Shown: one piece after another, positions 9,953 to 64,000 of the stretch
Numbering within the stretch: position 1 is the stretch's first letter
Layout of the letters: each line of letters starts with the position of its first letter
Source: an uncultured Peptococcaceae bacterium
GTDB lineage: Bacteria > Bacillota > Dehalobacteriia > UBA7702
NCBI GenBank assembly: GCA_964637365.1
Contig: CAZWWH010000001.1
Coordinates: 64,406 to 128,405 of the forward strand
Length of the DNA stretch: 64,000 nt
Direction: 5' to 3'
The notes under the pieces: generated by a model
Database searches by the model: none
What the model saw: the letters and a program-made list of their open reading frames with translations, nothing else
What the model was told of the DNA's origin: nothing
Position numbers and translations under genes: made by a program

Positions 9953-10022
9953 AAGCGCAAACCTCTTTTAGAAAAAGTTTTTCACCTTTCCTTTGCTTTT
10001 ATTCTTTATAACGATGATTGTT

Positions 10023-21292: not shown

Positions 21293-21571
21293 ATGATACG
21301 AATTTCGGAAATGCAGGAAAAGGATATCATCAACACCGCTGACGGCCGTTATCTGGGACGGCTGCGAGACATCGAAATTGACTTACAAGCAGGGAAAATC
21401 CGCAGCTTGGTATTACCCAATAACGGAGGCAGCGGTTTTCTCCGCCGCAAAGAACAAATTACTGTGGGCTGGCACCAAGTAAAAAAAATCGGTTTCGACG
21501 TCATTCTTATTGAGAGCTTTGGCCAGCAGGTTCCAACATACCTCTTAGAAGAACATTGCGATCAATCCTGA
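21293..21571 (+). CDS. YlmC/YmxH-family sporulation protein (PRC-barrel)
   Basis: MIRISEMQEKDIINTADGRYLGRLRDIEIDLQAGKIRSLVLP is the characteristic YlmC/YmxH sequence. Confidence 0.7.
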   Translation: MIRISEMQEKDIINTADGRYLGRLRDIEIDLQAGKIRSLVLPNNGGSGFLRRKEQITVGWHQVKKIGFDVILIESFGQQVPTYLLEEHCDQS

Positions 21572-22431: not shown

Positions 22432-22459
22432 AGTGTCTATCCTTTCTGTGATCCAGCAA

Positions 22460-23302
22460 TTATTCCCCACACACAATCATTAAGTCTGAAAGTGTTTCAG
22501 GTTTATCTTCAGCAAATGCATAAACATCTATGGTTTGCTCTGAAAGTTGATGGAAAGCCATGAGGGCTAAAGCGGCCTTTTGTCCCAAAGCCACGGAGAA
22601 ATCATGGTTTTCGTCGGAGAAATACTGTTCCAAATCGCTTTCATCTTTGGAGGGCAAAGGACTGTTCGAAGCACCTTGGGGCAGCATCACTACGACAGAA
22701 GAATTTTCCGCCATTTGACGCAATTCTTTCATCAGAGCCTTCACAGCTCCAGGTTCAGCGGAAGCATCCAGCACCAACGGCGCCACAGTGAGTCCCGGCA
22801 TATGATACCCCAAATACGTCATCATTGCTCCTAAATCCTGAAAATCACCTAAAGCATCGTTATTTGAGACCGCCCCCAGTATTTCAAAATTATTTAAAAA
22901 CTCTCGGTTGACATTGGTAACGCCATAGGAGGTCTGCCAATTCTCATCACCGTACAGCGGTATACTACCAATACCTTGCTCAAAGCAAACCAGAATCACG
23001 GGGTCATTGCGGTGATGGGCCGCAAAAAGGGCTATAGCTTCCCCTGTCGCTTCTTTGTCATCCAGAGGATTCGCCACAATCATAGACTCAACGGAGCCTT
23101 TATAAAGCGAGGCTCCCTGGGTACCGGGTCGAAAATTTCCGGAATTACTGTAAACATCACCGTGAATGGCAGGATAGATAGGATCCACCGCAGATCCTTG
23201 CTGCTGACTATACATGGCCCAGCAAGCCACGACGCCCCAGCAAATAATCGCGAAACCTAGGAACAGGCGAATCTTAAGTTTTTGACTCATTTTACCGCTC
23301 AT
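22460..23302 (-). CDS. Membrane-anchored extracytoplasmic protein of unknown function; second gene of an operon with the 1200 aa protein
   Basis: N-terminal TM anchor; overlaps the upstream gene by 11 nt; no confident family. Confidence 0.4.
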   Translation of the reverse strand: MSGKMSQKLKIRLFLGFAIICWGVVACWAMYSQQQGSAVDPIYPAIHGDVYSNSGNFRPGTQGASLYKGSVESMIVANPLDDKEATGEAIALFAAHHRNDPVILVCFEQGIGSIPLYGDENWQTSYGVTNVNREFLNNFEILGAVSNNDALGDFQDLGAMMTYLGYHMPGLTVAPLVLDASAEPGAVKALMKELRQMAENSSVVVMLPQGASNSPLPSKDESDLEQYFSDENHDFSVALGQKAALALMAFHQLSEQTIDVYAFAEDKPETLSDLMIVCGE

Positions 23303-26300
23303 TTTCCACCATCAGTCCTTTCGATTCCACTTTTCCCAAGAGAACACCGGCAGTCAAATCATAGACATAGACAGTTCCCAACACCCCGTCAGAGGGCTGA
23401 TTGACGGTAAAACGGATCTGGGCGCTGCTGTTTTCCGTAATAGCGGTGACGTATCCGTGACCCAAAGATATTTGCTCATCCAGGAGCACCTCGACACCGT
23501 TATCGGGACTAATATAAACCAAATAAAGATTATTGGTTTTGTAAAGGCCGCTCCACTGTACGTCCAACGTGACAGTGTCCCCTACTTCACAGCGAGTAAT
23601 GGTTTTATCATCCATGAGGAAGGAAGCAGGTAATACCTCCTCGGTTTTGGGCTCGTCGGCCACCAAATAAAGATTCCCATGCTCCGCTAATTTTATTTCA
23701 TCAATTTGAATCCATCGGAGTAAGCATTGAGACATCAGATAGCGATTGGTTTGGGTAGTCATATCCACATTCATGAGATAATTCATATAAGGCTCCGCAT
23801 CCTTTCCGCCAAAGGATAAAGACAGATCCAGCATAAATAATGTCTTCATGATCGCCATCTGACCATCGTTATCGGGGAAATAGGAGGAATCACCGTCCTG
23901 ATTCAAAGATTCTTTCAACTCACGATAAAGGCTTTTGGCAATATCTCCTTCATCGGCAGCTTGGAACGCTTTGGCTAAATACAACACCGCAAGATCTGTC
24001 AGGTCTTTGCTTTGTAACAGTGCTTTCATATCATCCAAAGGAGGTTCCTGTAAGGAACTCATAATCCAAAGGCCAAGGGCTAAAATTTCCGCATCATCAC
24101 TTTTTAGGCTGCGCTCTTGAGCGTAGCTCAGCAAGGCTTCATGATTGAAAACAGCATTGTTATTATCGGTAACTATGGCGGAGAGGAGCAAATCGCCCTT
24201 CAGACCAGGCAAGCGACCAAAACTACCATCATTGTTTTGGTATTTTAACAAATTATTATCGCGATAAACCACCAAATTTCCTGCATTTTCCCCCAAAGCA
24301 GTATAAAAATCATTGCGAGCCATAACCTGGAGCAACTGGTCGCCATGAAGTAAATTCAGTTGAAAGAGCTTTTCCGCATAGGACATTATCTCTTGGGAAA
24401 CGTTATAAGACTGCCAAACCCTGTCATCCTTAGATTTCTCCTCGGTAACCTTCAAAAGGGGCTCATTTTTTCCCACAGAAAACGAGACTTCCCTGTGAAG
24501 AACCTCGCGGCCCTCCTGCACCAAAGTCAACGTTCCGCTGTAAGTTCCCGCCGCCATTTTACCCAAAGACACAGTAAAGTCCTCAGAGGCTTCTCCCTCC
24601 CAAACAGCGTCATTGCTCAAGGAAAGGCGATAGGAATCCACATCACCAATGGTATGATAGGACAAATTTACCGCACTATCTGAGGAATAGTGGGTTTTAC
24701 CATCACTCCACAGCCGTACTCCATTGGTAACGGTTACGGGAATATCCCAATAAGTTCCGCCATAATAGGGCTGAACGCCATAAACCCGCAAGAAATAGCT
24801 GCCGGGTATGGAAGGAGCTGTCAAAGACAAGGTACTATTACCATCGGCAACCATATCCATAGCCAAAAAGCCCATCGTCATAGCATCTCCAATAGAATCA
24901 CAGGACACGCCTTTTCCCAAAGCTGAACCGGCGGGATTTCCATCATAGAGGGCAGCAAAATATGAATGACTGCTGTCGTCGGGAGAGAGCTTTAATGATT
25001 CTCCCGCTTCAATGGTGATTTCCTCGGGAAGATTGAGTTGAGGTGAATCAACGATTTTGGGAATCATGGCGATATCATCACCGTCATAAGCCAAGGCGAA
25101 GTCATAATTCTTTGTAAATTCCGGCGAGGTTTCAAGAACACCATCACGAAGAGATCCATAAACAACAGCTTCACTGTTTTCAAGAGAAACTGCCATAGAA
25201 TGATCGGATTCCGGCGAGGAACCATTTTCTTGTTCAGAATTCACAATAGAATAACGGCATTCTGTCTCTAATTCGGTGCCATCACTCAGAGTAGCAGAGA
25301 ATACAACTCTTTGGTCGATGACGGGCAGGATTCCCAAGTCCATGGCATGGAAATAAAATACAGCTTCCCCGTTATCATCGGTAATGCGTTTTCCAACATC
25401 TCCCGAAGCGGTAATGGACAGACCTTCCATGGGTTTTCCCTTTTGATCCAAAGCCTGCACCGTAAAGGTGATGTCTTCACCCTTTTCATAGGAGGAAGCA
25501 TCCATAGTTACCCAAAGACAAGGCTTGTCAGATATTTCGTCACGCACCGTAAAGTTGTAAGAAGCAATAGGATTCTGACCAACATTGATTACAGCTTTCC
25601 ATTGCCCTTGGGGTAAGGAAAGCCTTTCCCATTTAACAGAAAAACAGCCTTGTTCATCCAAAGAAGCGTCAAAGGTTTTTACAATACCACTTTGATTTTC
25701 CACAGAAATGGTTACATCCTCAGATATATCCAGCGAGGGCAAGGAGGTTTTCACATAGCCAAAGAAAGTCAAATCGTCACCATTGCCAACAAGATGATTG
25801 GAAACGGTAATTTCTCCGTCATAAGCTGATGTTCCATTCTCGTCCGCAGATAAAAAGATGATCTGTTCCTGTTCCCCCCAAGAGACCCGCACCACATTTT
25901 TTTGCGGAGACAGTAAACGGTCATCCAAAGTATCATTACTCTGCATGAAGGCACAACCATTGGCATCAATATCCATAGAGGAAAATCCCCAAACCAGTGT
26001 CGCGTTTTTCAAAGGCTTACCACGGTCCAGCCCCCAATAAAGCAGATGATTGCCATCATAATAGGTATAACTTTGAATATCACTGACCGTTACAGCCACA
26101 TCCCGGCTAATACCGCCCACGGTAAGGCGCAACAAATATTGCCCCTTGCCAGGATTCTTCAGATGAAGCGCACCATTTTCCAAACTATAATCCACCTTGT
26201 TCAACCGTTTCAGCCCGGAAGTTTCTCCCTGGAAACGGCTTGCCGAAAGGTTCGCCCATTGAGGCAATGAAAAAAGCGGGAGAAAGGTCTCTATAAAGGT

Positions 26301-26894
26301 TTTACTATCGGGGCAAGACCAAAGCTTGGCCGTAACATCGGGAACCGCACCGTTGGCATCATAATAAGCAAGGGGAATTACGATTTCCTCTTCATCTTGG
26401 AAAAAAAATTGTTGCGACTCCAAATACAAAGCACTGGTGGAAGGAATCCGCAAAGTGGAATCTTGTGTTTCAAAGGAAAAAGCTACGTTTTTCTGAATCA
26501 CACTGCCGCTGCCAGGTATCTCCGTATCTTGCGCAATGGACACTTTGTAATAGGTACCGCTTTGCCAACGCTGTGGATGGAAAATGAGCTTATCCCCTAC
26601 GGCGGTCCAATTTCCTTTGGTTTTGGGAGTGATTTCCACAGCCTCAGCCGCTTCCGCTGTAACAGGACGGTTCCATTGAATCACCAAAGGCTCATTTTGT
26701 GCTACGCCGCTGAGTCCCTGGGGACTGACGGAAACCACAGATATTTCATTACCGTTGTCATAAACATCATCGAATTCCGGGAAATGATTATCGTCCCGCA
26801 AAGCAAACCAATAAATAAGAAAAGCAGCCAACACCACGATGAAACATGCGGCGCCTATAGATATGATTTTCTTGTTTCCAACTGTAAAATTCAT
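23292..26894 (-). CDS. Large (1200 aa) N-terminally anchored cell-envelope protein with Ig-like/beta-sandwich domains (possibly alpha-2-macroglobulin-like); function unknown
   Basis: Single N-terminal TM, SbsA/Big-like first domain (..SVVSVSPQGLSGVAQNEPLVIQWNRPV..), long beta-rich body; no CxEQ thioester seen. Confidence 0.45.
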   Translation of the reverse strand: MNFTVGNKKIISIGAACFIVVLAAFLIYWFALRDDNHFPEFDDVYDNGNEISVVSVSPQGLSGVAQNEPLVIQWNRPVTAEAAEAVEITPKTKGNWTAVGDKLIFHPQRWQSGTYYKVSIAQDTEIPGSGSVIQKNVAFSFETQDSTLRIPSTSALYLESQQFFFQDEEEIVIPLAYYDANGAVPDVTAKLWSCPDSKTFIETFLPLFSLPQWANLSASRFQGETSGLKRLNKVDYSLENGALHLKNPGKGQYLLRLTVGGISRDVAVTVSDIQSYTYYDGNHLLYWGLDRGKPLKNATLVWGFSSMDIDANGCAFMQSNDTLDDRLLSPQKNVVRVSWGEQEQIIFLSADENGTSAYDGEITVSNHLVGNGDDLTFFGYVKTSLPSLDISEDVTISVENQSGIVKTFDASLDEQGCFSVKWERLSLPQGQWKAVINVGQNPIASYNFTVRDEISDKPCLWVTMDASSYEKGEDITFTVQALDQKGKPMEGLSITASGDVGKRITDDNGEAVFYFHAMDLGILPVIDQRVVFSATLSDGTELETECRYSIVNSEQENGSSPESDHSMAVSLENSEAVVYGSLRDGVLETSPEFTKNYDFALAYDGDDIAMIPKIVDSPQLNLPEEITIEAGESLKLSPDDSSHSYFAALYDGNPAGSALGKGVSCDSIGDAMTMGFLAMDMVADGNSTLSLTAPSIPGSYFLRVYGVQPYYGGTYWDIPVTVTNGVRLWSDGKTHYSSDSAVNLSYHTIGDVDSYRLSLSNDAVWEGEASEDFTVSLGKMAAGTYSGTLTLVQEGREVLHREVSFSVGKNEPLLKVTEEKSKDDRVWQSYNVSQEIMSYAEKLFQLNLLHGDQLLQVMARNDFYTALGENAGNLVVYRDNNLLKYQNNDGSFGRLPGLKGDLLLSAIVTDNNNAVFNHEALLSYAQERSLKSDDAEILALGLWIMSSLQEPPLDDMKALLQSKDLTDLAVLYLAKAFQAADEGDIAKSLYRELKESLNQDGDSSYFPDNDGQMAIMKTLFMLDLSLSFGGKDAEPYMNYLMNVDMTTQTNRYLMSQCLLRWIQIDEIKLAEHGNLYLVADEPKTEEVLPASFLMDDKTITRCEVGDTVTLDVQWSGLYKTNNLYLVYISPDNGVEVLLDEQISLGHGYVTAITENSSAQIRFTVNQPSDGVLGTVYVYDLTAGVLLGKVESKGLMVENER

Positions 26895-54856: not shown

Positions 54857-56389
54857 GTGAAAAACGAAACCGTTGTATTATTAGACTTCGGCGCCCAATA
54901 TAACCAACTGATCGCCAGAAGAGTTCGTGAGTGCGGCGTCTATTGTGAGCTATTGCCTTACGATACTGATATCGAAGAAATCAAAGCCCATTCTCCCAAA
55001 GGAATCATCCTAACCGGCGGTCCTTATAATGCCTATGAGGAAGGGGCTCCCCTGCCGGCCAAGGCTGTGTTTGAATTGGGAATCCCGATTTTAGGTATTT
55101 GTTATGGTCTCCAGAGCATGACCCAGGTTCTGGGCGGTGCGATTGATCGTGTGGAAAAGCGGGAATACGGCGCTCAAAATATCACCTTGTCAGAAGCGCC
55201 GATTTTTGATGAGCTCAGCGGCGAAACCCACTGTTGGATGAGTCATACCAATCAAGTCGGCACACTGCCGCCGGGATTTCAGTCCATCGCCCACACGGAA
55301 ACATGTCCCAACGCTGCCGTTATGGACGGTAAACGGAATTTTTATGGCGTACAATTCCACCCTGAAGTAGAACATACCCCCTTTGGACAAACCATGCTGC
55401 ATAATTTCTTATTTAAAGTTTGCGGTTGCAGCGGCGATTGGCAAATGGACTCTTATGCGAAACGTGCCATTGAAGAATTGCGCGCAAAAATGAAAGGACA
55501 AAAGGTCATCTGCGCGCTCTCTGGCGGTGTAGATTCCTCCGTAGCTGCAGTACTGGCTCATAAGGCCATTGGCGATGATTTGACCTGTATTTTTGTGGAT
55601 CATGGCCTTCTGCGAAAAGACGAAGGCGATGAAGTAGAAACCATTTTCAAAAAGCAATTTGCAATGAACCTGATTCGCGTGGACTGCAAACAACGGTTTT
55701 TGGATCTTTTGGCAGGCGTTACGGAACCGGAGAAAAAACGGAAACTCATTGGCGCGGAATTTATCAAAGTTTTTGAAGAGGAAGCAAAAAAACTGGGGCA
55801 ATGTGATATTTTGATTCAAGGTACCATCTATCCCGATGTCATTGAAAGCGGCAATAAAAATGCTCAGGTAATTAAGAGCCACCACAATGTCGGCGGACTT
55901 CCCGATGTCATGGATTTCAAAGAAATCGTGGAACCTCTTCGTGACCTGTTCAAAGATGAGGTTCGCAAGCTCGGTTTGGAATTAGGAATTCCTGATTTCC
56001 TTGTATTCCGTCAGCCCTTCCCCGGACCCGGTTTGGCTGTTCGTATCATCGGCGACATCACTGCGGAAAAAGTGGAAATTCTGCAAAATGCCGATGCCAT
56101 TTTCCGAGAAGAACTGGAGCAAGACGGCATTGCCAAAAACATCAATCAATACTTTGCCGTTCTTACCGGCATGAGAAGTGTCGGCGTCATGGGTGATGAA
56201 CGCACCTATGATTACACCTTGGCTCTCCGCGCCGTAACCACCTCGGACTTTATGACAGCGGATTGGGCCCAGATTCCCTACCCCACCTTGGCCAGGGTCT
56301 CCAACCGCATCACCAATGAAGTACGCCACATCAACCGCGTCGTCTATGACATCACCCAAAAACCCCCGGCAACTATTGAGTGGGAATGA
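54857..56389 (+). CDS. guaA: GMP synthase (glutamine-hydrolysing)
   Basis: GATase domain (ICYGLQ), PP-loop [11 protein letters not shown] synthase C-domain; GTG start with AAAGGAG RBS. Confidence 0.95.
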
Positions 56390-56409
56390 TAAAGATATTT
56401 TTTAATACA

Positions 56410-56445
56410 ATAGCAGGTAATCGATATGACTACCTGCTATTATTT
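56410..56445 (+). terminator. Intrinsic terminator of guaA
   Basis: atagcaggtaatcgatatgactacctgctat hairpin plus T-run. Confidence 0.8.
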
Positions 56446-56481
56446 AGGGTTTACATTGAAAGAGCAGTATAGGAGGCAGCA

Positions 56482-56769
56482 ATGAAATTCGCATTTATCA
56501 TCATGGGGACATTTGGCCCCCAAGAGGATCGAGCAAAGATCCACAACGGAGCAGCACAAATCATAGGAGTCTCCAATATTGATGAAGCCTGCGCCGTCGC
56601 AAAGGCTCTACAAAAGGAAGGTATAGACTGTATTGAGCTTTGCGGCGCCTTTGGAGAAAGCGGCGCAAAAAGAATCATCGAGACCACAGAGAATCAAGTT
56701 CCCATTGGGTATGTTACTCACCTTGCAGAACAGGAACACCTATTTCAATTAAAATTCGGAAATTCATAA
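56482..56769 (+). CDS. Hypothetical small (95 aa) alpha/beta protein
   Basis: RBS-like AGGAGG 12 nt upstream, well-formed ORF, no recognised family. Confidence 0.4.
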   Translation: MKFAFIIMGTFGPQEDRAKIHNGAAQIIGVSNIDEACAVAKALQKEGIDCIELCGAFGESGAKRIIETTENQVPIGYVTHLAEQEHLFQLKFGNS

Positions 56770-56795
56770 AACCACCCTTTAGGAGTCAAACATTT

Positions 56796-57239
56796 ATGTT
56801 TATCTATGAAACCAAAGAACGGACTCCCTCTCTTATCAAAAATCTACTTCAACTTTGGGAACGATCCGTGCGAGCAACCCATCATTTTCTTTCAGAGTCA
56901 GAAATTCAACGTATCGCTGCGTATATTCCCAAAGCTTTAAAGGAAGTTCCCCACTTAATCATCGCCACGGACAAAAGCGGCAAACCAACGGCGTTTATGG
57001 GAATTGCTGAAACAACCCTGGAGATGCTGTTTCTCGCCCCAGAGATGCGAGGAAAGGGAATAGGAAAAGCCCTCCTTCAATACGGCATTGAGAATTATAC
57101 TGTTAATGAATTATGTGTCAATGAACAAAATCCTCAAGCCAAAGGGTTTTACGAGCACATGGGATTTGAAATATACCAACGAAGTCCCTTAGACAGCCAG
57201 GGAAGTCCATATCCTATTCTCCATATGCAGAGAAAATAA
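56796..57239 (+). CDS. GNAT-family N-acetyltransferase
   Basis: Acetyl-CoA binding motif (..RGKGIGKALL..); start MFIYETK with AGGAG RBS. Confidence 0.75.
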   Translation: MFIYETKERTPSLIKNLLQLWERSVRATHHFLSESEIQRIAAYIPKALKEVPHLIIATDKSGKPTAFMGIAETTLEMLFLAPEMRGKGIGKALLQYGIENYTVNELCVNEQNPQAKGFYEHMGFEIYQRSPLDSQGSPYPILHMQRK

Positions 57240-57261
57240 GCACTTATAGATATATATCCCA

Positions 57262-57303
57262 AAAAGGACCTTATCAGTTGATCAACCGATAAGGTCCTTT
57301 TTT
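57262..57303. terminator. Bidirectional terminator (GNAT / regulator convergent)
   Basis: aaaggaccttatcagttgatcaaccgataaggtccttt hairpin. Confidence 0.85.
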
Positions 57304-57314
57304 ATTGTGATTTT

Positions 57315-58184
57315 TCATGACGAACGGTTACTCCTGCGAAATTGCCCCGGAGTTGTCCCCTCGTGCTCCTTAAAAATTTTATTAAAATAGCTTTGGTCGG
57401 TAAATCCCACCTGATTAGCAATTTCAGCAATGCTCAGGTCGGAAAATATCAAAAGCTCTTTGGCTTTTTCAATGCGAATGCCGTTGAGATAAGAACGAAA
57501 ATTGCAATTCATCTTCTTATTAAAAATGCGACTCAGATGGGACGGATTCACATAAGCATATTTGGCTGCGTCACTAAGAGTGATATTTTCCGCATAGTTC
57601 GATGCGATAAAATCTAGAATGGAATTTACTAGATTATTACTAATCTTATGATCACTGGCCTCTATTTTTTCTCCGATTGGTACCCCATCATTACTGCAGT
57701 TGGCTACGAGCATGGCCATGGTTTCGGAAAGAGCTACCAAATAGTTAATGTCTCCCGAGGGATATTGCTGTAGATTGTCCCTTAAAACAGTGATATCTTC
57801 CTGGGAAAGGTTCCAGAGGGGCAATACCCTTTTTTCTAGATATTCGTCAGGTTCCATAGTAAGTACCGGACCTGCCTGAAGCGCAGCAATTAATTCTTTC
57901 CCTTGAAATACCGGAATTATAATATTAGAGAGACCAAAGGGACATCTATAAATAATTTGACGGTTCACATTCGTAGAAATGTCGCAACGTTTATAAATAT
58001 GGTCGTAACTGATATCAATCCCCACGCACTCGGCAACCTTCTGACAAAAGCAATGATCCAGATGACATTTCGGTACTTCAATCAATTTTCGATTTGGCAC
58101 ATCAATGACCAAACTATAAGAATTTGTAGTAGCATAAAGCAATTTACCAGCATGGCAAAGATTGGCTAACACTTTATCCGTCAT
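57315..58184 (-). CDS. AraC-family transcriptional regulator with an N-terminal PocR-like sensor domain
   Basis: C-terminal double HTH AraC signature (..LSDAAKYAYVNPSHLSRIFNKK.., ..IAEIANQVGFTDQSYFNKIFKE..); N-terminal ~170 aa Cys/His-rich sensory domain; start MTDKVLANL preceded by AAAGGAGAG. Confidence 0.8.
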   Translation of the reverse strand: MTDKVLANLCHAGKLLYATTNSYSLVIDVPNRKLIEVPKCHLDHCFCQKVAECVGIDISYDHIYKRCDISTNVNRQIIYRCPFGLSNIIIPVFQGKELIAALQAGPVLTMEPDEYLEKRVLPLWNLSQEDITVLRDNLQQYPSGDINYLVALSETMAMLVANCSNDGVPIGEKIEASDHKISNNLVNSILDFIASNYAENITLSDAAKYAYVNPSHLSRIFNKKMNCNFRSYLNGIRIEKAKELLIFSDLSIAEIANQVGFTDQSYFNKIFKEHEGTTPGQFRRSNRSS

Positions 58185-58665
58185 ATGGGCTCTCCTTTCA
58201 GTGTCCATAACCATTGTATCTTCATAGCGATAGAGGGCTTATTTCAATGTTTAAAATTTTTACATTACGATCATAAACTATATGCAATACCACAAAATGC
58301 CTTTTTGTATCTTTCATTGAAATTATACATTAAAACATGTTAACTTTACAACACAATATTACTATTTAACTGCTAATATGCAAATTATTTCCTAAAACGT
58401 CAATTAATTACAAAATATTCAATCGGTTGGATAATAAAATCACTCCACTATGGATTTTTCAATATGATAGCAATATTTTTCACATTTTAAATGTAATTTA
58501 TTTCCAAGTTTCAATCAATTAAATACTATAAAATCTTGTGAAAACAGTGTAAATTTAACTCAACAAAGATACTTAACCAAATTCCTAGCGATATGGAAAA
58601 CAAGAATTTGGAAAGGAGGTGTAAAACTCCAAGCATCTCAATCTAAAAATAAGGAGGAAAAAATA

Positions 58666-60306
58666 ATGAGTATGGTAGACAAAAGAGAGGCAGCTACAAA
58701 AAGCAAAGTAGTACTGATCGTATCAATGATCATTGCCATTGTCTTTGTTGCTCTTGGTGCAATCTTCCCTGAAGGAACTGCCAAGGTCATCAACATTCTT
58801 AATGCGTTCTTAACCGGAGAACTAGGTTGGATGTATCTTTTGTTTATGGCGTTCTTTGTGTTCTTCACCTTTGGCCTTGCATTTTCCAAATACGGAAAAA
58901 TCAAATTAGGGAAAGATGACGACAAACCTGATTTTAGTAATTTCCAATGGTTCGCCCTTTTGTTTGGCGGCGGTATCGGTATCGGCCTTGTGTTCTGGGC
59001 CATTGCAGAACCAATGCAACATCTGGCTACCGGTCCCATGGACGATCCACTTACCGTGGAAGCGATGCGTACCGCAATCCGCATCACCTTCGCTCATGAA
59101 GGGGTTCACTGCTGGGCCACCTTTGCTCTGGTAGGGACCTGCCTAGCTTACCATGTATATCGGAAAGATAGACCATTCCTCATGAGTTCCGCTTTTTATC
59201 CCCTGTTCGGCGAAAAAGTTTATGGTCCTGTGGGTTACGTCGTGGACATTCTGGCAACTTTTGCCACCTTGTTCGGCATCGTTACCAGCTTGGGCTTGGG
59301 GGCAATGCAGATCGTTGGCGGTCTCGGTTATATGTACGGCTTTAACACGAGCAATGTAACTGTCGCAATCGTAATTGCCGTTATTACCGTGGCCTTTACC
59401 CTGGCGACAGCCACCGGCCTTCACGCATGGATGACTAAGGTCGTTAACTTAAAAACTTGGCTCTCAATCCTTTTCATGATATTCTTCCTCGTCTTTGGCG
59501 GATTCGTTTTTATCATGCGAAACATGAGCGATGCCATCGGTGTTTATCTTAATGATTTCTTCACCCAGACCTTCTGGTACGGCGACCCTGAATGGCTCAG
59601 TGCCTGGACTGTATTCTACTGGGCATGGTGGATTTCCTGGGCAACCTTCTGCGGCACCTTTTTTGCCAGAGTATCCAAAGGCCGTACCGTAAGACAGATG
59701 CTCCTGGGCAGCACCTTCCTGCCTGCCGGCTTCTCCTTTATCTGGATTACCATCTATGCCGGCGCAGCCTTCAACCTTGACCTTACGGTTTTAGGAAATG
59801 GTGCTGTTCAAACCGGCCCCATCTTTGAAGCAGCCAACGCAAACTATGCCACGGCAATGTTCGCTACCTTAGAACAGCTTCCTCTCTATAAAATCATGGG
59901 TCCATTGGCTCTGCTTCTCGTATTCCTCTGCTTCCTCGGTGCTGCGGACTCCGCCACCTTCGTATTGCCGATGCTTACCATGGGCGGCAGTCAGAACCCA
60001 CCGAAGAAAGCAAGAATTTTCTGGGGCGCTGCCCAAGGTGCGGTTGCCATCGTTTTGGTACTCGCGGCGGGCGAAGCGACGCTGAAAGCACTGCAAACAG
60101 CATCGGTCATGGCGGCTTTCCCCTTCATGTTCGTACTGGCGCTCATGTGCATCGCCATTGTTCGGGCCTTCAAAGGTGAATTTGATTCTTCCATTGGAGA
60201 CATCCCAATGTTCGATAAAGCAGCAAGGGCAGCCGCAAAAGCGCGCAAAGAGGAATTGAAAGCCGCCGCCCAAAAAGCCGCTGAAGAAGAGGCGGCAGCA
60301 GAATAA
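58666..60306 (+). CDS. BCCT-family transporter (betaine/carnitine/choline type)
   Basis: 12-TM BCCT family with Trp-rich signature segments (WTVFYWAWWISWATFCG); strong RBS AAGGAGGAAAAAATAATG. Confidence 0.9.
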   Translation: MSMVDKREAATKSKVVLIVSMIIAIVFVALGAIFPEGTAKVINILNAFLTGELGWMYLLFMAFFVFFTFGLAFSKYGKIKLGKDDDKPDFSNFQWFALLFGGGIGIGLVFWAIAEPMQHLATGPMDDPLTVEAMRTAIRITFAHEGVHCWATFALVGTCLAYHVYRKDRPFLMSSAFYPLFGEKVYGPVGYVVDILATFATLFGIVTSLGLGAMQIVGGLGYMYGFNTSNVTVAIVIAVITVAFTLATATGLHAWMTKVVNLKTWLSILFMIFFLVFGGFVFIMRNMSDAIGVYLNDFFTQTFWYGDPEWLSAWTVFYWAWWISWATFCGTFFARVSKGRTVRQMLLGSTFLPAGFSFIWITIYAGAAFNLDLTVLGNGAVQTGPIFEAANANYATAMFATLEQLPLYKIMGPLALLLVFLCFLGAADSATFVLPMLTMGGSQNPPKKARIFWGAAQGAVAIVLVLAAGEATLKALQTASVMAAFPFMFVLALMCIAIVRAFKGEFDSSIGDIPMFDKAARAAAKARKEELKAAAQKAAEEEAAAE

Positions 60307-60412
60307 CACGAAAAAATCATACTAGTATATTTATATTCGATCCGCCCTGTTTTCATCACAGACGATCAAGACAGAGAGCAAATAAAAAAACATAATTTAA
60401 GGAGGAAACAAC

Positions 60413-61051
60413 ATGGCAACATTACAAGATTTATCCAAGGCTGTTATCGCTGGGAAAACCAATAAGGTAAAAAAATTGATTGATGCGCTTTTGGAAGAAA
60501 AAGTCGCTCCTTTGGACATCATCAACGTCGGTCTCATCGGTGGCATGACAGAAGTGGGGGTTCGCTTCAAAGCAAACCAAATGTTTGTTCCCGAGGTTCT
60601 CATGTCGGCTCAAGCAATGGAAGCAGGCACGGATATTGTAAAACCTCTGATGAATGCCGAAGACCTCCCGGCTTTGGGCTCTGTACTCTTGGGTACTGTC
60701 AAAGGCGACTTGCACGATATTGGGAAAAACCTCGTAGGGATGATGCTGGAAAGTGTCGGCTTCAAAGTCATCAACGCAGGCATTGATGTTTCCCCTGAAG
60801 CCTTTGTGGAAGGCGTCAAAGAGCATAAACCCGATGTGGTCGCAATGTCGGCACTTCTCACCACCACCATGCTTCACATGAAAGACACCATTGAGCTGTT
60901 AAAGGAAGAAGGCCTCAGAGATCAGGTTAAGGTCATTATCGGCGGCGCTCCCGTTTCCCAAGACTTTGCCGATGAAATCTTTGCCGACGGCTTCGGCCCC
61001 GACGCTGTTTCCGCTACGGATCTTTGCAAAAAATTGCTGGGCATTTCCTAA
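60413..61051 (+). CDS. Cobalamin-binding corrinoid protein (MtbC/MttC/MtgC-like)
   Basis: B12-binding-2 cap helix plus B12-binding Rossmann domain with DxHxxG (GDLHDIGKNLV) and ..SALLTT..GG motifs. Confidence 0.9.
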   Translation: MATLQDLSKAVIAGKTNKVKKLIDALLEEKVAPLDIINVGLIGGMTEVGVRFKANQMFVPEVLMSAQAMEAGTDIVKPLMNAEDLPALGSVLLGTVKGDLHDIGKNLVGMMLESVGFKVINAGIDVSPEAFVEGVKEHKPDVVAMSALLTTTMLHMKDTIELLKEEGLRDQVKVIIGGAPVSQDFADEIFADGFGPDAVSATDLCKKLLGIS

Positions 61052-61104
61052 TCCCCAATCAGGCTTGAACCTTTACAGCTTCCCCACAGAAAGGAGAGAA
61101 AGCA

Positions 61105-62574
61105 TTGTTTACGACGAAAAGCTTATATACAAAATCTGACTTTAAAGTCAATCAAAATATCGAATGGACCATTTTGTCCGACGACCAGTGTGAAGATATT
61201 TTCTTAACCGCTCTGGAATTATTGGAACGGACCGGCGCCGACATTTTAAGCGCCAAAGCCCGGGAAATCTTTGCCCAAAATGGTTGCCTCGTCAATGGAG
61301 ACCGCGTCCGCATCCCCTCTATCAAAGTACAAAAAGCTTTAAATGAAACACCGAAACGCTTGACTCTTTGTAACCGCAATGGCCAACGGGCCATGGTTCT
61401 GGAGGCCGGCAACATTCATTACGGCCCCGGTTTTGACAATAAAAAAATCATGGATATCGAAACCGAAGAAATTCGTGATGCCAAAAAATCCGACGTTGCC
61501 GACATCGCCAAAATTTGCGACAGCATTGCCGATGTAGATTTTGTAATGAACAATGGGCTTCCCGGTGACGTTCCCGCTGCAGTGGCAGCACTCCACAGCT
61601 ATGAAGCTCTGGTTTCCAACACCACCAAACCTGTTATCCAGGAAGTGAAAACCAAAGCCCAGGCAGAAGCCGTCATGGAAATGGCCTTTGCCGTAGCGGG
61701 CAGCGCCGAAGCCTTTGCTTACGATCCCTTTACCGCTCTTCTGGTGGAAAACGAAGAAACCCTGTCCATCAATGCGGAAGCCACCGACATCGTATTGGCC
61801 GCTGCTACCAAAGGCATGCCGGTGATTTTCTCCAACCGTCTCATCACCGGTCTTACCGCTCCCATGGAAAGCGCAGGCGCAATCATCAGTGCTCTGGCCA
61901 ACTCCCTAGCCGCCATCGTATTGGCACAAATGGCAGCTCCCGGTGCTCCCGTCATTACCGGCGGATTCTTCACCATCAATGACAAAGACAATGAAACCTG
62001 CCCTTACGGTGCACCGGAAATCTCCCTGTTGGGTGCTGGTTTCAGCGCAGTGCTCCGCTATCTCAAGGTTCCCAGCTTTGGTTTCGCCGGCGGCACCGAC
62101 GCCAAGATCAGCGACGCTCAAATGGGCCTCGAATCCACATTCTCTCTGCTCCAGTCCGGTCTCTCCGGCACCAACCTGATTTACGGTGCAGGGCAAATGG
62201 AAACCGGCGAGTATGGCAGCGCTTTCCTGGTGGTCATGGCCAGTGAGGTTATGGGCATGACCCGCCGCATCATCAGCGGCGTTCCCATGGACGAAGACCG
62301 TTTGGCCCGCGGCGTTATCGACGATGTGCAGCCCGGTGGCCACTATCTCGGATCCCCTCACACCAGATATTACTTCAAGAAGGAACAATTCTGGCCCAAA
62401 TTGATGAACCGCGCCAGAATTGACGACTGGACCGCCGCAGGGGCAAAATCTTTGGGACAGCGCACCATGGAAATGACCAGAGACTTGCTGGCCATGGCAG
62501 CGCCCGAAGCATTGCCTGCCGACACTGCTGCCGCCTTGAAGGACATCATCACCAAAGCTGAAGCTGAACTGTAA
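61105..62574 (+). CDS. MttB-superfamily methyltransferase, non-pyrrolysine type (quaternary amine:corrinoid methyltransferase, MtgB-like)
   Basis: 489 aa TIM-barrel trimethylamine-methyltransferase family with no in-frame TAG; TTG start preceded by AAAGGAGAG. Confidence 0.85.
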   Translation: MFTTKSLYTKSDFKVNQNIEWTILSDDQCEDIFLTALELLERTGADILSAKAREIFAQNGCLVNGDRVRIPSIKVQKALNETPKRLTLCNRNGQRAMVLEAGNIHYGPGFDNKKIMDIETEEIRDAKKSDVADIAKICDSIADVDFVMNNGLPGDVPAAVAALHSYEALVSNTTKPVIQEVKTKAQAEAVMEMAFAVAGSAEAFAYDPFTALLVENEETLSINAEATDIVLAAATKGMPVIFSNRLITGLTAPMESAGAIISALANSLAAIVLAQMAAPGAPVITGGFFTINDKDNETCPYGAPEISLLGAGFSAVLRYLKVPSFGFAGGTDAKISDAQMGLESTFSLLQSGLSGTNLIYGAGQMETGEYGSAFLVVMASEVMGMTRRIISGVPMDEDRLARGVIDDVQPGGHYLGSPHTRYYFKKEQFWPKLMNRARIDDWTAAGAKSLGQRTMEMTRDLLAMAAPEALPADTAAALKDIITKAEAEL

Positions 62575-62589
62575 GGAGGGGTGAATCCA

Positions 62590-64000
62590 TGAGAACCAAT
62601 TATAAAGCCAACACAGGTGTGTCCATGCACGTTTTTTCCGAAGCCCAATGCCGTGAATTGGTTTTGGCCGCTGAAGAAGCCATGTGGCGCACAGGAACAG
62701 ATTTTTATGATCCCGAATCCATTGAGATTTTGAGAAAAGCCGGCTGCTGGGTTGACGGCAAAAGAGTCCGTATCCCCGCTCACATTACCGAAGCCGCGTT
62801 GAGAAGCTGCCAGAAACACGTTGTTCTCTGCAACAGCCGTACCGGCGCCAGAGAACTCTTCCTGGAAGGCGGAAACTCCTACTTCGGTTCCGGCCCCTGC
62901 ACACCCTTTACCCGCAATCCTTATACCGGAGAACGCCATCGTGCCACCCGCCAAAGCGTTGCTTGGGCCACCAAGGTTTTGGATGCACTTCCCAACATCG
63001 ACTATGCCATGAGCTTGGGGATTGTTCAGGACGTACCCCTTCTCATTTCTGACCGTCATGAATTTGAACAACAAATTTTGAATACGGAAAAACCCATCAT
63101 CACCGTTTGCGTTGACCAATGGGGACAGGATGACTGCATTAAAATGGCAGAAATCGTCGCCGGTGGCGAAGAAGAATTGAGAAGAAATCCCTTCATTTGC
63201 CTTTACGCAGAACCCATCTCCCCCGGGGTACACTGCATTGAAGCGGCGCAAAAATTAGTGACCGGCGCCAAGAAAGGTTTGCCCACCATTTATACGCCTT
63301 GCATTATGGCAGGTGGTACTGCTCCCGCCACTATGGCAGGGGTTATGGTTCAGGGCCTTTGCGAAAGCCTCAGCGGTCTCGTTTTGAGCCAATGCACCAG
63401 AGAAGGCGCTCCCTTCATTATGGGTGGTGTTTACACCATTCTTGATATGGGTTCCACCATCTTCTCTTACGGCGCTCCCGAATTAAGCCTCCTTCTCGCC
63501 GGTTTAGCTGACGTGGCTCATTACCTCAACATCCCCATGTTCGGTACCTCCGGTTGCACCGATACCTGCATCATTGATGAACAGGCCGGTGTGGAAGCGG
63601 CCCTCTCCATCGCCATGACCGACATGTCCGGCGCCAATTTGAACCACGATATTGGCTACTCCGAATACGGCACTACCTCCAACTTGGATTTGGTAGTCAT
63701 CGCTGACGAAGTTTTGGGTATGGCTCGCCGCCTCACCGCAGGCATTGAAGTCAACGAAGAAACTAAGGCCTTGTCCAAGATCGAAGCCGCAGGCCCCGGC
63801 GGTCGCTACGATGTCATTGACCGTGACGACGATTGGGACGATGACGACGACGATGAAGATTACGTACCAAAGAATCCCAGAATGGATTACAAAAACCGTT
63901 TGGTGCACCGTGGCGCCAGAGAGCTCTGGCAGAAGGCCGGCGGAAAGACCTTGACCCAGGTCGCCAACGAAAAAGTTCGCGACATCATCGAATATCATGA
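62590..64000 (+). CDS. Second MttB-superfamily methyltransferase paralog (non-Pyl), 3' end outside the window
   Basis: Frame 1 is open from ATG 62590 to the window end (470 codons) and not listed in the ORF track because it has no stop; clear MttB-family similarity; unusual Asp-rich insertion near the C-terminus. Confidence 0.8.

What the first reader, a model, noticed from the sequence alone, without database searches (positions are those of the whole stretch)
57315..64000. PocR/AraC regulator, BCCT transporter, corrinoid protein and two non-Pyl MttB paralogs: a quaternary-amine demethylation module of unknown substrate
A regulator (57315-58184, minus), BCCT transporter, DxHxxG corrinoid protein and two tandem MttB-superfamily genes form one cluster, with the structural genes on the + strand after a long AT-rich control region. 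Neither MttB gene has an in-frame UAG, so they belong to the non-pyrrolysine branch, whose characterised members demethylate glycine betaine, proline betaine, carnitine or gamma-butyrobetaine. Two different MttB paralogs sharing a single corrinoid protein and a single BCCT importer suggests either two related substrates or a heteromeric arrangement. The divergently transcribed AraC regulator with a PocR-like sensor domain is a candidate substrate-responsive activator. The methylcorrinoid:THF methyltransferase and the reductive activator expected for such systems are not in the window and may lie just beyond 64000.
Basis: partly seen in the sequence, partly recalled or inferred. Interest (0 to 1): 0.8.

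Follow-up and report, generated by a model that had tools for sequence, protein, structure and literature searches.

The report
Betaine-type corrinoid demethylation operon, unusual enzymes
This is the front part of a widely conserved operon that strips methyl groups from glycine-betaine-type compounds using vitamin B12 proteins; its two methyltransferases match no characterised enzyme, and one carries a cluster of cysteines and a histidine where related enzymes carry the rare amino acid pyrrolysine.

Summary
All five genes are at the stated coordinates: a PocR/AraC regulator, a BCCT transporter, a DxHxxG corrinoid protein and two MttB-family genes with no in-frame stop. The second MttB gene is cut by the window end at codon 470 of 498.

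The guess about what lies beyond 64000 is wrong. Identical contigs show a 675-aa HyuA-like ATPase, a second BCCT that passes the glycine-betaine equivalog cut-off, an EamA exporter, then another MttB/BCCT/HyuA module. No pterin-binding methyltransferase or RamA occurs in the window or about 12 kb downstream.

The set corrinoid protein, MttB1, MttB2 and HyuA-like ATPase recurs in about 30 genomes across three phyla. It is often embedded in glycine/sarcosine/betaine reductase operons.

The Formimonas warabiya orthologues are strongly induced on glycine betaine. No member has been characterised biochemically.

Neither paralogue is an MtgB. Both lack the Arg312 kept by every characterised non-Pyl member.

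The MttB2 clade is very conserved (77-97% identity). It has invariant Cys, Cys, Cys, His at positions equivalent to Met249, Pyl334, Lys338 and Tyr364 of MttB, which suggests a metal site.

Best reading: a stepwise betaine then dimethylglycine demethylation module. Verdict: real feature, a new variant of a known kind, interest about 0.6.

The parts
57315..58184 (-). PocR-sensor/AraC-HTH transcriptional regulator (289 aa as called by gene callers; the longest ORF extends to 58214). It is transcribed divergently from the operon.
   Evidence: Pfam HTH_18 87.5 bits, HTH_AraC 65.7, PocR 37.1 (cut-off 23.9). NCBIfam PocR equivalog scores only 103.9 against a cut-off of 500. A divergent PocR/AraC gene is found at the same position in L007, L009, L010, L011, L012, L014, L040 and L048.
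58185..58665 (.). AT-rich divergent control region (27-31% G+C). It contains a block, 58523-58562, that is conserved with the Ca. Cryptoclostridium obscurum locus. This is a candidate promoter/operator.
   Evidence: Composition. Alignment with L007 and L040. Sigma-70-like hexamers number 15 against 8.4 +/- 3.3 expected. No sigma-54 motif in the region. No Rfam riboswitch. Only weak repeats.
58666..60306 (+). BCCT-family importer (546 aa).
   Evidence: Pfam BCCT 527.8 bits. Best NCBIfam hit is the glycine betaine uptake BCCT, 590.6 bits, below its cut-off of 650.
60413..61051 (+). Cognate corrinoid protein (212 aa). The DxHxxG motif is DLHDIG at nt 60707-60724.
   Evidence: Pfam B12-binding_2 77.6 and B12-binding 97.9 bits. 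Nearest NCBIfam models are MtgC_2 (218, cut-off 370) and pyl_corrinoid (203.2, cut-off 215.3). Motif position.
61105..62574 (+). MttB1: non-Pyl MttB-superfamily methyltransferase (489 aa, TTG start). Gly330 (GGC, 62092-62094) sits at the pyrrolysine position. An Rfam PYLIS_3-like match lies at 62092-62191.
   Evidence: PF06253 277.6 bits. PDB: MttB 7xcl E 8e-57, MtgB 9yce E 1e-52. At MtgB positions Y97/R312/H348/F356 it has F/F/Y/G. It forms a monophyletic clade of 33 orthologues. PYLIS_3 scores 44.7 bits with the model's UAG aligned to GGC.
62589..64000 (+). MttB2: non-Pyl MttB-superfamily methyltransferase, truncated by the window end (470 of 498 codons). Clade-invariant residues are Cys238 (63300-63302), Cys323 at the pyrrolysine position (63555-63557), Cys327 (63567-63569) and His353-Asp354 (63645-63650). 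A poly-Asp insert lies at 63819-63860.
   Evidence: PF06253 229.2 bits. Orthologues are 77-97% identical across Clostridia, Negativicutes, Actinomycetota and Desulfobacterota. Site mapping against MttB and MtgB. C323, H353 and D354 are invariant and C238 is at least 90% conserved in 90 sequences down to 55% identity. AF2 model pLDDT 84.7; Foldseek TM 0.87 to MttB 7xcl.

Best explanation
The segment is the promoter-proximal part of a conserved corrinoid-dependent N-demethylation operon for glycine betaine and its demethylation product.

Full unit, read from identical contigs:
- PocR/AraC regulator, transcribed divergently.
- BCCT importer.
- Corrinoid protein.
- MttB1.
- MttB2.
- A 675-aa HyuA-like ASKHA ATPase.
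- A glycine-betaine-type BCCT.
- An EamA exporter.

Proposed mechanism:
1. The BCCT carriers import glycine betaine.
2. MttB1 and MttB2 are two distinct methyltransferase-I enzymes. Each transfers an N-methyl group to the Co(I) form of the corrinoid protein.
3. The most likely assignment is two successive steps: betaine to dimethylglycine, then dimethylglycine to sarcosine.
4. The methyl-corrinoid is discharged to tetrahydrofolate by a pterin-binding methyltransferase encoded elsewhere in this genome. Reductive reactivation by a RamA/RACE protein is also encoded elsewhere, as in Eubacterium limosum.
5. The HyuA-like protein supplies an ATP-dependent step specific to this branch of the superfamily. 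It could act on the substrate or on the methyltransferase/corrinoid complex.
6. EamA exports the demethylated product.
7. PocR/AraC switches the operon on in response to the substrate.

What is shown: gene identities, conserved synteny, induction of orthologues by betaine, and the absence of MtgB and Pyl signatures.

What is inferred: substrate assignment to each paralogue, the role of the ATPase, the regulator's ligand, and the metal site in MttB2.

Downstream genes:
- They were read from contigs that encode an identical corrinoid protein and carry the same genes as the window (L001-L003, L045).

Conservation of the module:
- A search with MttB2 found 36 loci. Nearly all loci with enough flank (roughly 30) also carry an MttB1 orthologue, and most carry the HyuA-like gene.
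- The same set is recovered when starting from HyuA-like homologues of Tissierella creatinini, an Eggerthellaceae MAG and Desulfocicer niacini.

Neighbouring genes in relatives:
- Pterin_bind methyltransferase in 15 loci.
- Further BCCT genes.
- GrdB, GrdE, GrdC, GrdD and TrxB reductase genes.
- GcvT and Liv-type ABC transporters.

Expression evidence:
- L018 corresponds to Ga0180325_114734-42 of Ca. Formimonas warabiya. All nine proteins are far more abundant on glycine betaine. LFC is -8.2 for the MttB1 type, -10.4 for the MttB2 type and -7.2 for the 668-aa 'unknown' HyuA-like protein (PMC9768040).
- That paper also notes the same architecture in Sporomusa ovata strains. It suggests the multiple methyltransferases may serve betaine and dimethylglycine.
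- S. sphaeroides induces its 58-kb betaine gene cluster on betaine (PMC12456013). I did not map these genes to that cluster.

Phyletic pattern:
- S. ovata has the module and ferments betaine, dimethylglycine and sarcosine (PMC3772150).
- Acetobacterium woodii has a canonical MtgB system and excretes dimethylglycine (PMC10390620). No Acetobacterium hit appeared in my searches.

Other points:
- Where each MttB has its own corrinoid gene (L016, L018, L019, L020) or a corrinoid gene lies between them (L024, L025, L030, L031, L034), two separate enzyme systems are indicated.
- The BCCT just past the window end passes the glycine-betaine equivalog cut-off, 679 against 650.
- E. limosum sets two precedents: the methyltransferase II and activase can be encoded away from the MttB genes (PMC8604678), and an ATP-dependent step can precede demethylation (MthK; PMC12155760).
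Against: - No member of either clade, nor the HyuA-like protein, has been assayed.
- Both paralogues have Phe where MtgB has Arg312. That residue binds the carboxylate and is conserved in all characterised non-Pyl members (PMC13080624). A carboxylated substrate such as betaine or dimethylglycine would therefore have to bind differently.
- Formimonas also has a canonical MtgB in the same induced cluster. Induction on betaine therefore does not show that MttB1 or MttB2 acts on betaine itself.
- This organism's cluster has no Grd genes, pterin-binding methyltransferase or RACE nearby. The full pathway cannot be shown from the available sequence.
- MttB1 active-site positions vary among orthologues. 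That fits a shifting specificity or a non-catalytic role.
- HyuA-type enzymes normally phosphorylate ketones or lactams. Betaine and dimethylglycine are neither.
Confidence: 0.55

Rival explanations
1. MttB1 and MttB2 form one obligate heteromeric methyltransferase acting on a single substrate. MttB2 would be the conserved catalytic subunit and MttB1 a more variable specificity or scaffold subunit. The HyuA-like ATPase would be a third subunit or activator.
For: - The two genes co-occur in nearly all loci, usually adjacent with a 14-30 nt gap.
- MttB-family enzymes are dimers in which the C-terminal loop of one subunit completes the other's active site (PMC13080624; PMC9842639).
- MttB2 is far more conserved than MttB1: within-clade distance 0.159 against 0.374.
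- MttB1 pocket positions vary among orthologues.
- In this window the two share one corrinoid protein.
Against: - In at least 9 loci a corrinoid gene separates the two or each has its own, which is typical of independent enzyme/corrinoid pairs.
- MttB1 orthologues still keep many invariant residues, with mean column identity 67%.
- L011 and L012 carry an extra MttB2 copy, and L038 has MttB2 without MttB1.
- No complex prediction could be run.
Confidence: 0.2
2. The true substrates are methylated amines without a carboxylate, for example trimethylamine released by betaine reductase, or choline-type compounds. The link to betaine would then be indirect.
For: - Both paralogues lack Arg312 and score higher against Pyl-MttB than against MtgB: 196 against 183 bits, and 171 against 139 bits.
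- MttB1 keeps enough nucleotide similarity to Pyl-type mttB to pass the Rfam PYLIS_3 threshold.
- In relatives the clusters sit beside Grd reductase genes that could be betaine reductases producing trimethylamine.
- The S. sphaeroides authors annotated trimethylamine methyltransferase (mttBC) genes within the betaine cluster.
Against: - Trimethylamine needs no BCCT importer, yet one to three BCCT genes accompany the module.
- S. ovata has separate Pyl-type methylamine methyltransferases.
- Formimonas converts betaine by way of dimethylglycine and sarcosine to monomethylamine, not trimethylamine.
- No known non-Pyl enzyme demethylates trimethylamine.
Confidence: 0.15
3. The HyuA-like ATPase is the functional replacement for the RamA/RACE reductive activase. 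The module would otherwise be an ordinary betaine system.
For: - There is a faint MutL/GlmL match, a B12-enzyme accessory protein.
- No RACE gene lies near most of the loci.
- Two loci without a HyuA-like gene after MttB2, L016 and L039, have a Met_synt_B12 activation-domain protein there instead.
Against: - There is no Fe-S binding motif. Only one Cys is invariant.
- It co-occurs with a genuine RACo gene in L047, L035, L039 and L020.
Confidence: 0.1

Closest known systems
'Type B' glycine-betaine-induced methyltransferase cluster of Ca. Formimonas warabiya DCMF (Ga0180325_114734-114738) and Sporomusa ovata (SOV_3c09370-09310) (PMC9768040)
   Same: - Orthologous corrinoid protein (73-74% identity), MttB1 (55%), MttB2 (84%) and HyuA-like protein (60%), in the same order.
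- BCCT genes are attached.
- Proteomic induction on betaine is reported for the Formimonas orthologues.
   Different: - This locus has one corrinoid gene instead of two.
- It has a PocR/AraC regulator instead of a sigma-54 activator.
- It has no adjacent MtgA, canonical MtgB or Grd genes.
- It adds an EamA exporter.
- The published work gives expression data only. No activities, no residue analysis and no role for the HyuA-like protein are reported.
MtgB/MtgC/MtgA glycine betaine:THF methyltransferase system (Desulfitobacterium hafniense, Acetobacterium woodii)
   Same: - MttB-superfamily TIM barrel (Foldseek TM 0.85 to 2qne and 9yce).
- A DxHxxG corrinoid protein.
- BCCT uptake.
- No pyrrolysine.
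   Different: - About 25-29% identity.
- The betaine-binding residues Y97, R312, H348 and F356 are F/F/Y/G in MttB1 and P/F/H/G in MttB2.
- Genuine MtgB-like paralogues in the same loci keep Y/R/H/aromatic.
- Both paralogues fall in clades separate from MtgB.
Pyrrolysine-dependent trimethylamine methyltransferase MttB/MttC (Methanosarcina barkeri, PDB 7xcl)
   Same: - It is the best PDB match for both paralogues.
- Both share the one-residue deletion before Tyr364/His and the G-x-G loop at Gly110-Thr111.
   Different: - There is no UAG codon. Gly (MttB1) or Cys (MttB2) replaces Pyl334.
- Both score below the TIGR02369 cut-off: 370 and 305 against 525.
Eubacterium limosum quaternary-amine systems (MtpB, MtcB, MtyB with shared MtqC/MtqA/RamQ; MthB/MthC/MthA/MthK for choline)
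   Same: - MttB-family genes are encoded away from the shared methyltransferase II and activase (PMC8604678).
- An ATP-using enzyme is part of the choline pathway (PMC12155760).
   Different: - All of those enzymes keep the Arg312 equivalent (PMC13080624). MttB1 and MttB2 do not.
- The ATP-dependent partner here is HyuA-like, not a kinase of the MthK type.
- I could not obtain the E. limosum sequences, so they are missing from the tree.
Zinc-dependent methyltransferase I enzymes such as MtaB (methanol:corrinoid; Zn bound by Glu, Cys, Cys; my own knowledge)
   Same: MttB2 has a Cys/Cys/Cys/His(+Asp) set lining the pocket of a TIM-barrel corrinoid methyltransferase. This would allow Lewis-acid activation of a poor methyl donor.
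   Different: - It belongs to a different protein family.
- Metal binding in MttB2 is only inferred from conservation. No coordinates or metal analysis were available.

Membership tests
MttB superfamily (PF06253 / COG5598) | Significant match to the family profile over the full length | tested here: met
   MttB1 277.6 bits and MttB2 229.2 bits against a cut-off of 25, covering profile positions 26-498 and 28-473.
MttB superfamily (PF06253 / COG5598) | TIM-barrel fold like MttB and MtgB | tested here: met
   The MttB2 AF2 model (pLDDT 84.7) matches 7xcl at TM 0.87 and 9yce/2qne at 0.85-0.86. MttB1 was tested by sequence only: E 8e-57 to 7xcl.
MttB superfamily (PF06253 / COG5598) | Encoded next to a cognate DxHxxG corrinoid protein | tested here: met
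   The corrinoid gene at 60413-61051 lies 53 nt upstream of MttB1 and carries the DLHDIG motif.
Pyl-dependent trimethylamine methyltransferase MttB (TIGR02369) | In-frame UAG (pyrrolysine) at the Pyl334 position | tested here: not met
   The equivalent codons are GGC (MttB1) and TGC (MttB2). Both ORFs are uninterrupted.
Pyl-dependent trimethylamine methyltransferase MttB (TIGR02369) | Score above the curated equivalog cut-off | tested here: not met
   370.5 and 305.4 bits against a cut-off of 525.
MtgB glycine betaine methyltransferase | Betaine-binding residues Y97, R312, H348, F356 (PMC13080624) | tested here: not met
   MttB1 has F/F/Y/G and MttB2 has P/F/H/G. Control MtgB-like paralogues in the related loci have Y/R/H/(F,Y,W).
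MtgB glycine betaine methyltransferase | Groups with D. hafniense MtgB in a tree | tested here: not met
   In the NJ tree the MtgB-like sequences plus MtgB are monophyletic (8 sequences). The MttB1 (33) and MttB2 (40) clades are separate.
MtgB glycine betaine methyltransferase | Glycine betaine:cob(I)alamin methyl transfer activity | not testable with these tools
   This needs an enzyme assay.
Characterised non-Pyl quaternary-amine methyltransferases (MtpB, MtcB, MtyB, MthB) | Conserved Arg at the MtgB-R312 position that binds the acidic group | tested here: not met
   Phe occupies this position in 28 of 30 MttB1 and 37 of 37 MttB2 orthologues. The rule itself is stated in PMC13080624.
Methyltransferase cognate corrinoid proteins (MtgC / TIGR02370) | B12-binding_2 cap plus Rossmann B12-binding domain with DxHxxG | tested here: met
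Methyltransferase cognate corrinoid proteins (MtgC / TIGR02370) | Score above the curated MtgC or pyl_corrinoid cut-offs | tested here: not met
   218 against 370, 196.4 against 310, and 203.2 against 215.3.
Glycine betaine uptake BCCT transporter (NF047988) | Score above the equivalog cut-off of 650 | tested here: inconclusive
   The in-window BCCT scores 590.6, below the cut-off. The second BCCT of the same operon, just past the window end, scores 679.3, above it.
PocR-type AraC regulators | N-terminal PocR sensor domain plus C-terminal AraC HTH | tested here: met
   PF10114 37.1 bits (cut-off 23.9) at residues 76-171. HTH_18 at residues 217-294. It is not the PocR equivalog: 103.9 against 500.
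Hydantoinase A / oxoprolinase A (HyuA) ATP-dependent enzymes (the downstream 675-aa protein) | Hydant_A_N and Hydantoinase_A domains, with intact ASKHA ATP motifs | tested here: met
Hydantoinase A / oxoprolinase A (HyuA) ATP-dependent enzymes (the downstream 675-aa protein) | Works with a HyuB-type partner subunit encoded alongside | tested here: not met
   No HyuB-like gene was recognised in any of the roughly 30 loci examined. Not every flanking ORF was scanned.
RamA/RACE reductive activases | Fe-S (ferredoxin-type) domain fused to the RACo ASKHA domain | tested here: not met
   No such gene lies in the window or about 12 kb downstream. The HyuA-like protein has no Cys motif. Genuine RACo genes occur separately in L020, L035, L039 and L047.

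The most novel reading that the evidence does not exclude
MttB2 may represent a third chemical solution to corrinoid-dependent amine demethylation. The two known solutions are pyrrolysine adduct formation and permanently charged quaternary substrates. In this reading, a metal ion held by the clade-invariant Cys238, Cys323 (at the pyrrolysine position), Cys327 and His353 activates a tertiary amine such as dimethylglycine. The always-linked HyuA-like ATPase would supply an ATP-dependent step. MttB2 would then be the missing anaerobic dimethylglycine demethylase.
Probability: 0.22. Interest if true: 0.85.

Novelty: new variant of a known kind. Interest (0 to 1): 0.6.

Why it matters
Anaerobes such as Sporomusa and Formimonas demethylate betaine past dimethylglycine. 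No enzyme for the dimethylglycine step is known. It is also unclear how a tertiary amine could be demethylated by Co(I) without pyrrolysine.

This module gives concrete candidates: two defined enzyme clades, their corrinoid protein and an ATPase. It also gives a residue-level hypothesis, the Cys/Cys/Cys/His site, that can be tested by mutagenesis and metal analysis.

The closest carriers are gut and digester Clostridia and Eggerthellaceae. The system therefore also bears on how gut microbes divert betaine-type compounds away from trimethylamine formation.

It also warns annotators. These genes are labelled 'trimethylamine methyltransferase', and MttB1 even triggers the Rfam PYLIS model, although neither gene uses pyrrolysine.

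Tried and rejected
1. Annotating the window through exact-protein look-ups gave only short contigs or nothing. I used Pfam scans instead.
2. I looked for a riboswitch or leader RNA. Rfam found none in 56000-64000.
3. The PYLIS_3 hit inside MttB1 is not a functional element. The model's UAG aligns to GGC, the match is gap-free coding homology, and the model has few base pairs.
4. There is no sigma-54 promoter in the leader. The repeats in the leader are weak and short.
5. I considered the HyuA-like protein as a RamA substitute. This is disfavoured: it has no Fe-S motif and it co-occurs with genuine RACo genes.
6. I asked whether HyuA-like proteins pair only with the Cys-type MttB. They do not. 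The second module downstream pairs a HyuA-like protein with an MttB that has Ala at the pyrrolysine site.
7. The supplementary alignment of the MtgB paper, which holds the E. limosum sequences, is not held. MtpB, MtcB, MtyB and MthB could therefore not be placed in the tree.
8. Literature searches for a characterised dimethylglycine corrinoid methyltransferase, or for the HyuA-like partner, found only the Formimonas proteomics paper.
9. Model coordinates are not exposed. The 3-D clustering of the Cys and His residues could not be measured. It rests on homology to positions that the MttB crystal-structure paper describes as lining the Pyl pocket; Lys338/Cys327 is not among them.

Full report
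**Observation**

- A PocR-sensor/AraC regulator lies on the minus strand at 57315-58184. The longest ORF runs to 58214, but gene callers on identical contigs use the 289-aa start.
- A 451-nt intergenic region has 27-31% G+C.
- On the plus strand follow a BCCT transporter (58666-60306) and a corrinoid protein (60413-61051).
- The corrinoid protein's DxHxxG motif is DLHDIG at residues 99-104.
- MttB1 occupies 61105-62574 and MttB2 starts at 62589.
- Gaps between the structural genes are 106, 53 and 14 nt, each with a Shine-Dalgarno sequence.
- Neither MttB frame contains a stop codon.
- MttB2 is cut by the window end at codon 470. It has 498 residues on contigs that encode an identical corrinoid protein and carry the same genes.

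**What lies beyond the window**

Contigs carrying the identical corrinoid protein (L001-L003, L045) show what follows MttB2:
1. A 675-aa protein with Hydant_A_N and Hydantoinase_A domains.
2. A 517-aa BCCT.
3. An overlapping EamA-family transporter.
4. A convergent module: HyuA-like protein (696 aa), BCCT (514 aa) and MttB (487 aa).
5. A sigma-54 activator.
6. Yet another MttB gene.

No pterin-binding methyltransferase and no RamA/RACE gene occurs within about 12 kb downstream. Pfam scans of the large ORFs in the rest of the window found only housekeeping genes. These include the dnaK operon, lepA, murJ, leuS and guaA.

This absence is not unusual. In Eubacterium limosum the shared corrinoid protein, methyltransferase II and activase are encoded away from the MttB-family genes (PMC8604678).

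**Conservation**

A scan of one genome per species with MttB2 returned 36 loci. ORF calling and BLAST against the window proteins show a conserved core. It consists of the corrinoid protein, MttB1, sometimes a second corrinoid protein, MttB2 and the HyuA-like protein.

Carriers of the core include:
- Ca. Cryptoclostridium obscurum, the closest relative (MttB2 97% identical).
- Gut and digester Clostridia MAGs.
- Desulfosporosinus.
- Ca. Formimonas warabiya.
- Three Sporomusa species.
- Syntrophaceticus, Thermacetogenium and Dehalobacterium.

Starting instead from HyuA-like homologues gave the same four genes in Tissierella creatinini, an Eggerthellaceae MAG and Desulfocicer niacini.

MttB2 is far more conserved (77-97%) than MttB1 (50-82%), the corrinoid protein (66-92%) or the HyuA-like protein (53-88%).

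Frequent neighbours in relatives:
- A Pterin_bind methyltransferase, in 15 loci.
- BCCT genes.
- Sigma-54 activators.
- Glycine/sarcosine/betaine reductase genes (GrdB, GrdE, GrdC, GrdD, TrxB).
- GcvT.
- Liv-type ABC transporters.
- Occasionally RACo, a Met_synt_B12 activation-domain protein, or an MtrH-like protein.

The PocR/AraC regulator is specific to the clade nearest the window and to the Eggerthellaceae and Coriobacteriaceae loci.

**Link to glycine betaine**

Locus L018 matches gene for gene, by protein lengths, Ga0180325_114734-114742 of Ca. Formimonas warabiya DCMF. All nine proteins are strongly enriched on glycine betaine compared with dichloromethane. LFC is -8.2 for the MttB1 type, -10.4 for the MttB2 type and -7.2 for the 668-aa 'unknown' (PMC9768040).

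That paper makes three further points.
- This 'first-half' architecture also occurs in S. ovata DSM 2662, strain An4 and Ca. Frackibacter.
- The proteins were abundant in betaine-grown An4.
- The multiple methyltransferases might serve betaine and dimethylglycine.

S. sphaeroides KIAC induces a 58-kb betaine gene cluster on betaine (PMC12456013). Its authors list annotated mttBC genes in that cluster. I did not map MttB1 and MttB2 to it.

S. ovata ferments betaine, dimethylglycine and sarcosine (PMC3772150). A. woodii has a canonical MtgB system and excretes dimethylglycine (PMC10390620). No Acetobacterium hit appeared in my searches.

The BCCT just past the window end passes the NCBIfam glycine-betaine equivalog cut-off (679 against 650). 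The in-window BCCT falls just short (590.6).

**What the two methyltransferases are not**

Both belong to PF06253, and both match Pyl-MttB (7xcl) slightly better than MtgB. I mapped the experimentally defined betaine-binding residues of MtgB (Y97, R312, H348, F356; PMC13080624) onto an alignment of 79 sequences.

| Group | Residues at Y97 / R312 / H348 / F356 | Residue at the Pyl334 position |
|---|---|---|
| Canonical MtgB-like paralogues in these loci | Y / R / H / aromatic | Leu |
| Window MttB1 | F / F / Y / G | Gly (Ala, Gly or Ser in orthologues) |
| MttB2 | P / F / H / G | Cys |

Arg312 is reported to be conserved in all characterised non-Pyl members because their substrates are acidic. 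Both clades here have Phe at that position.

An NJ tree resolves MttB1 (33 sequences), MttB2 (40) and MtgB-like plus D. hafniense MtgB (8) as separate monophyletic groups. MttB1 and MttB2 are closer to each other than to either reference.

**The MttB2 active site**

The MttB crystal-structure paper describes Met249, Pyl334 and Tyr364 as surrounding the Pyl-trimethylamine site (PMC9842639). At the positions I compared, the MttB2 clade has the following residues.

| MttB position | MttB2 residue | Conservation in the clade |
|---|---|---|
| Met249 | Cys238 | 37 of 37 |
| Pyl334 | Cys323 | 37 of 37 |
| Lys338 | Cys327 | 35 of 37 |
| Tyr364 | His353 | 37 of 37 |
| Gly365 | Asp354 | 37 of 37 |

- In a wider alignment of 90 homologues down to 55% identity, C323, H353 and D354 are invariant and C238 is at least 90% conserved.
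- The Tissierella, Eggerthellaceae and Desulfocicer copies keep the pattern.
- The AF2 model is confident at these residues (pLDDT 87-91). It superposes on MttB at TM 0.87.

None of these residues occurs in MttB1, MtgB or Pyl-MttB. The pattern looks like a metal site, comparable to the Zn site of MtaB (my own knowledge).

**The HyuA-like protein**

- Its ASKHA ATP-binding motifs are invariant, and it has no Fe-S motif.
- No HyuB partner was recognised in any locus examined.
- It co-occurs with genuine RACo genes in four loci. This argues against a simple activase replacement.
- Its role is unknown. E. limosum MthK shows that an ATP-dependent step can be coupled to an MttB-family demethylation (PMC12155760).

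**Interpretation**

The best-supported reading is a betaine-responsive demethylation operon with two distinct methyltransferase-I enzymes. They would act on successive substrates: betaine, then dimethylglycine. The operon also includes an ATP-dependent accessory protein, two importers and an exporter. It relies on a methyltransferase II and an activase encoded elsewhere.

Loci in which each MttB has its own corrinoid gene favour two separate systems over a heteromer. The near-universal co-occurrence of the two genes and the unequal conservation keep the heteromer alive as a rival.

The missing Arg312 and the affinity to Pyl-MttB keep open a substrate without a carboxylate.

**Novelty**

The gene architecture has been noted once in the literature, with expression data only. 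The following appear unreported in the searchable literature:
- The residue-level distinction from MtgB.
- The Cys/Cys/Cys/His site.
- The phylum-spanning linkage to a HyuA-like ATPase.

I rate the finding a new variant of a known kind, with moderate to high interest. It offers testable candidates for the unknown anaerobic dimethylglycine demethylase.

Noticed in passing
window 62092-62191 (+), inside MttB1: An Rfam PYLIS_3 (pyrrolysine insertion sequence, mttB) match scores above the gathering threshold: 44.7 against 38 bits, E 7e-07. The model's UAG aligns to a GGC glycine codon. This looks like coding-sequence homology to Pyl-type mttB, not a functional element. It could mislead automated annotation.
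   Followed up: yes
window 63819-63860 (MttB2 residues 411-424): MttB2 has a poly-aspartate insert, DRDDDWDDDDDDED, in the region corresponding to the dimerisation loop. It is modelled with pLDDT below 50. It is present or varied in some orthologues (Cryptoclostridium, Desulfocicer, Syntrophaceticus) and absent in Sporomusa and Formimonas.
   Followed up: partly
L045 14605-22028 (roughly 9-16 kb past the window end): There is a second, convergent module: HyuA-like protein (696 aa), BCCT (514 aa) and MttB (487 aa, Ala at the pyrrolysine site, no corrinoid gene of its own). A PAS/sigma-54 activator and a further MttB gene follow. The region is an island of MttB-family modules.
   Followed up: partly
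window 56482-57239; L001 1-6830: A DUF6506 gene (56482-56769) and a GNAT acetyltransferase gene (56796-57239) stay attached to the regulator side of the cluster in two different contexts. In the window and in L002 they follow guaA. In L001 and L045 a restriction-modification/Mrr gene block sits upstream of DUF6506 where the window has guaA. This could be a strain-level insertion.
   Followed up: no
window 21562-26894 (-): A standalone homocysteine S-methyltransferase-domain protein (PF02574, 194 bits) lies next to two proteins with no Pfam family on record, of 280 aa and 1200 aa. A split MetH-like acceptor for methyl-corrinoid is conceivable, but the gene is 35 kb from the cluster.
   Followed up: no
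L029 3524-4180; L016 11460-13524; L039: Sporomusa and Desulfosporosinus loci carry a small protein with a methionine-synthase activation-domain (Met_synt_B12) match. In L016 and L039 it sits directly after MttB2, where the HyuA-like gene normally is. L016 also has an MtrH-like methyltransferase there.
   Followed up: no
L036 8493-9958 (Sporomusa ovata, second copy): A second S. ovata copy of the module has MttB1 split into two ORFs (8493-9131 and 9182-9958). It has no HyuA-like gene, and a GcvT gene follows instead. It may be a decaying duplicate.
   Followed up: no
window 58523-58562: This roughly 40-nt block (ATACTATAAAATCTTGTGAAAACAGTGTAAATTTAACTCA) is the best-conserved part of the AT-rich leader when compared with the Ca. 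Cryptoclostridium obscurum locus. It is a candidate promoter/operator for the PocR/AraC regulator.
   Followed up: partly
L001 17482-18432; L024, L030, L031, L034 upstream of MttB1: An EamA-family transporter recurs with the module in at least seven loci, in two different positions. In this organism it overlaps the stop of the second BCCT by 13 nt. It may export the demethylated product.
   Followed up: no
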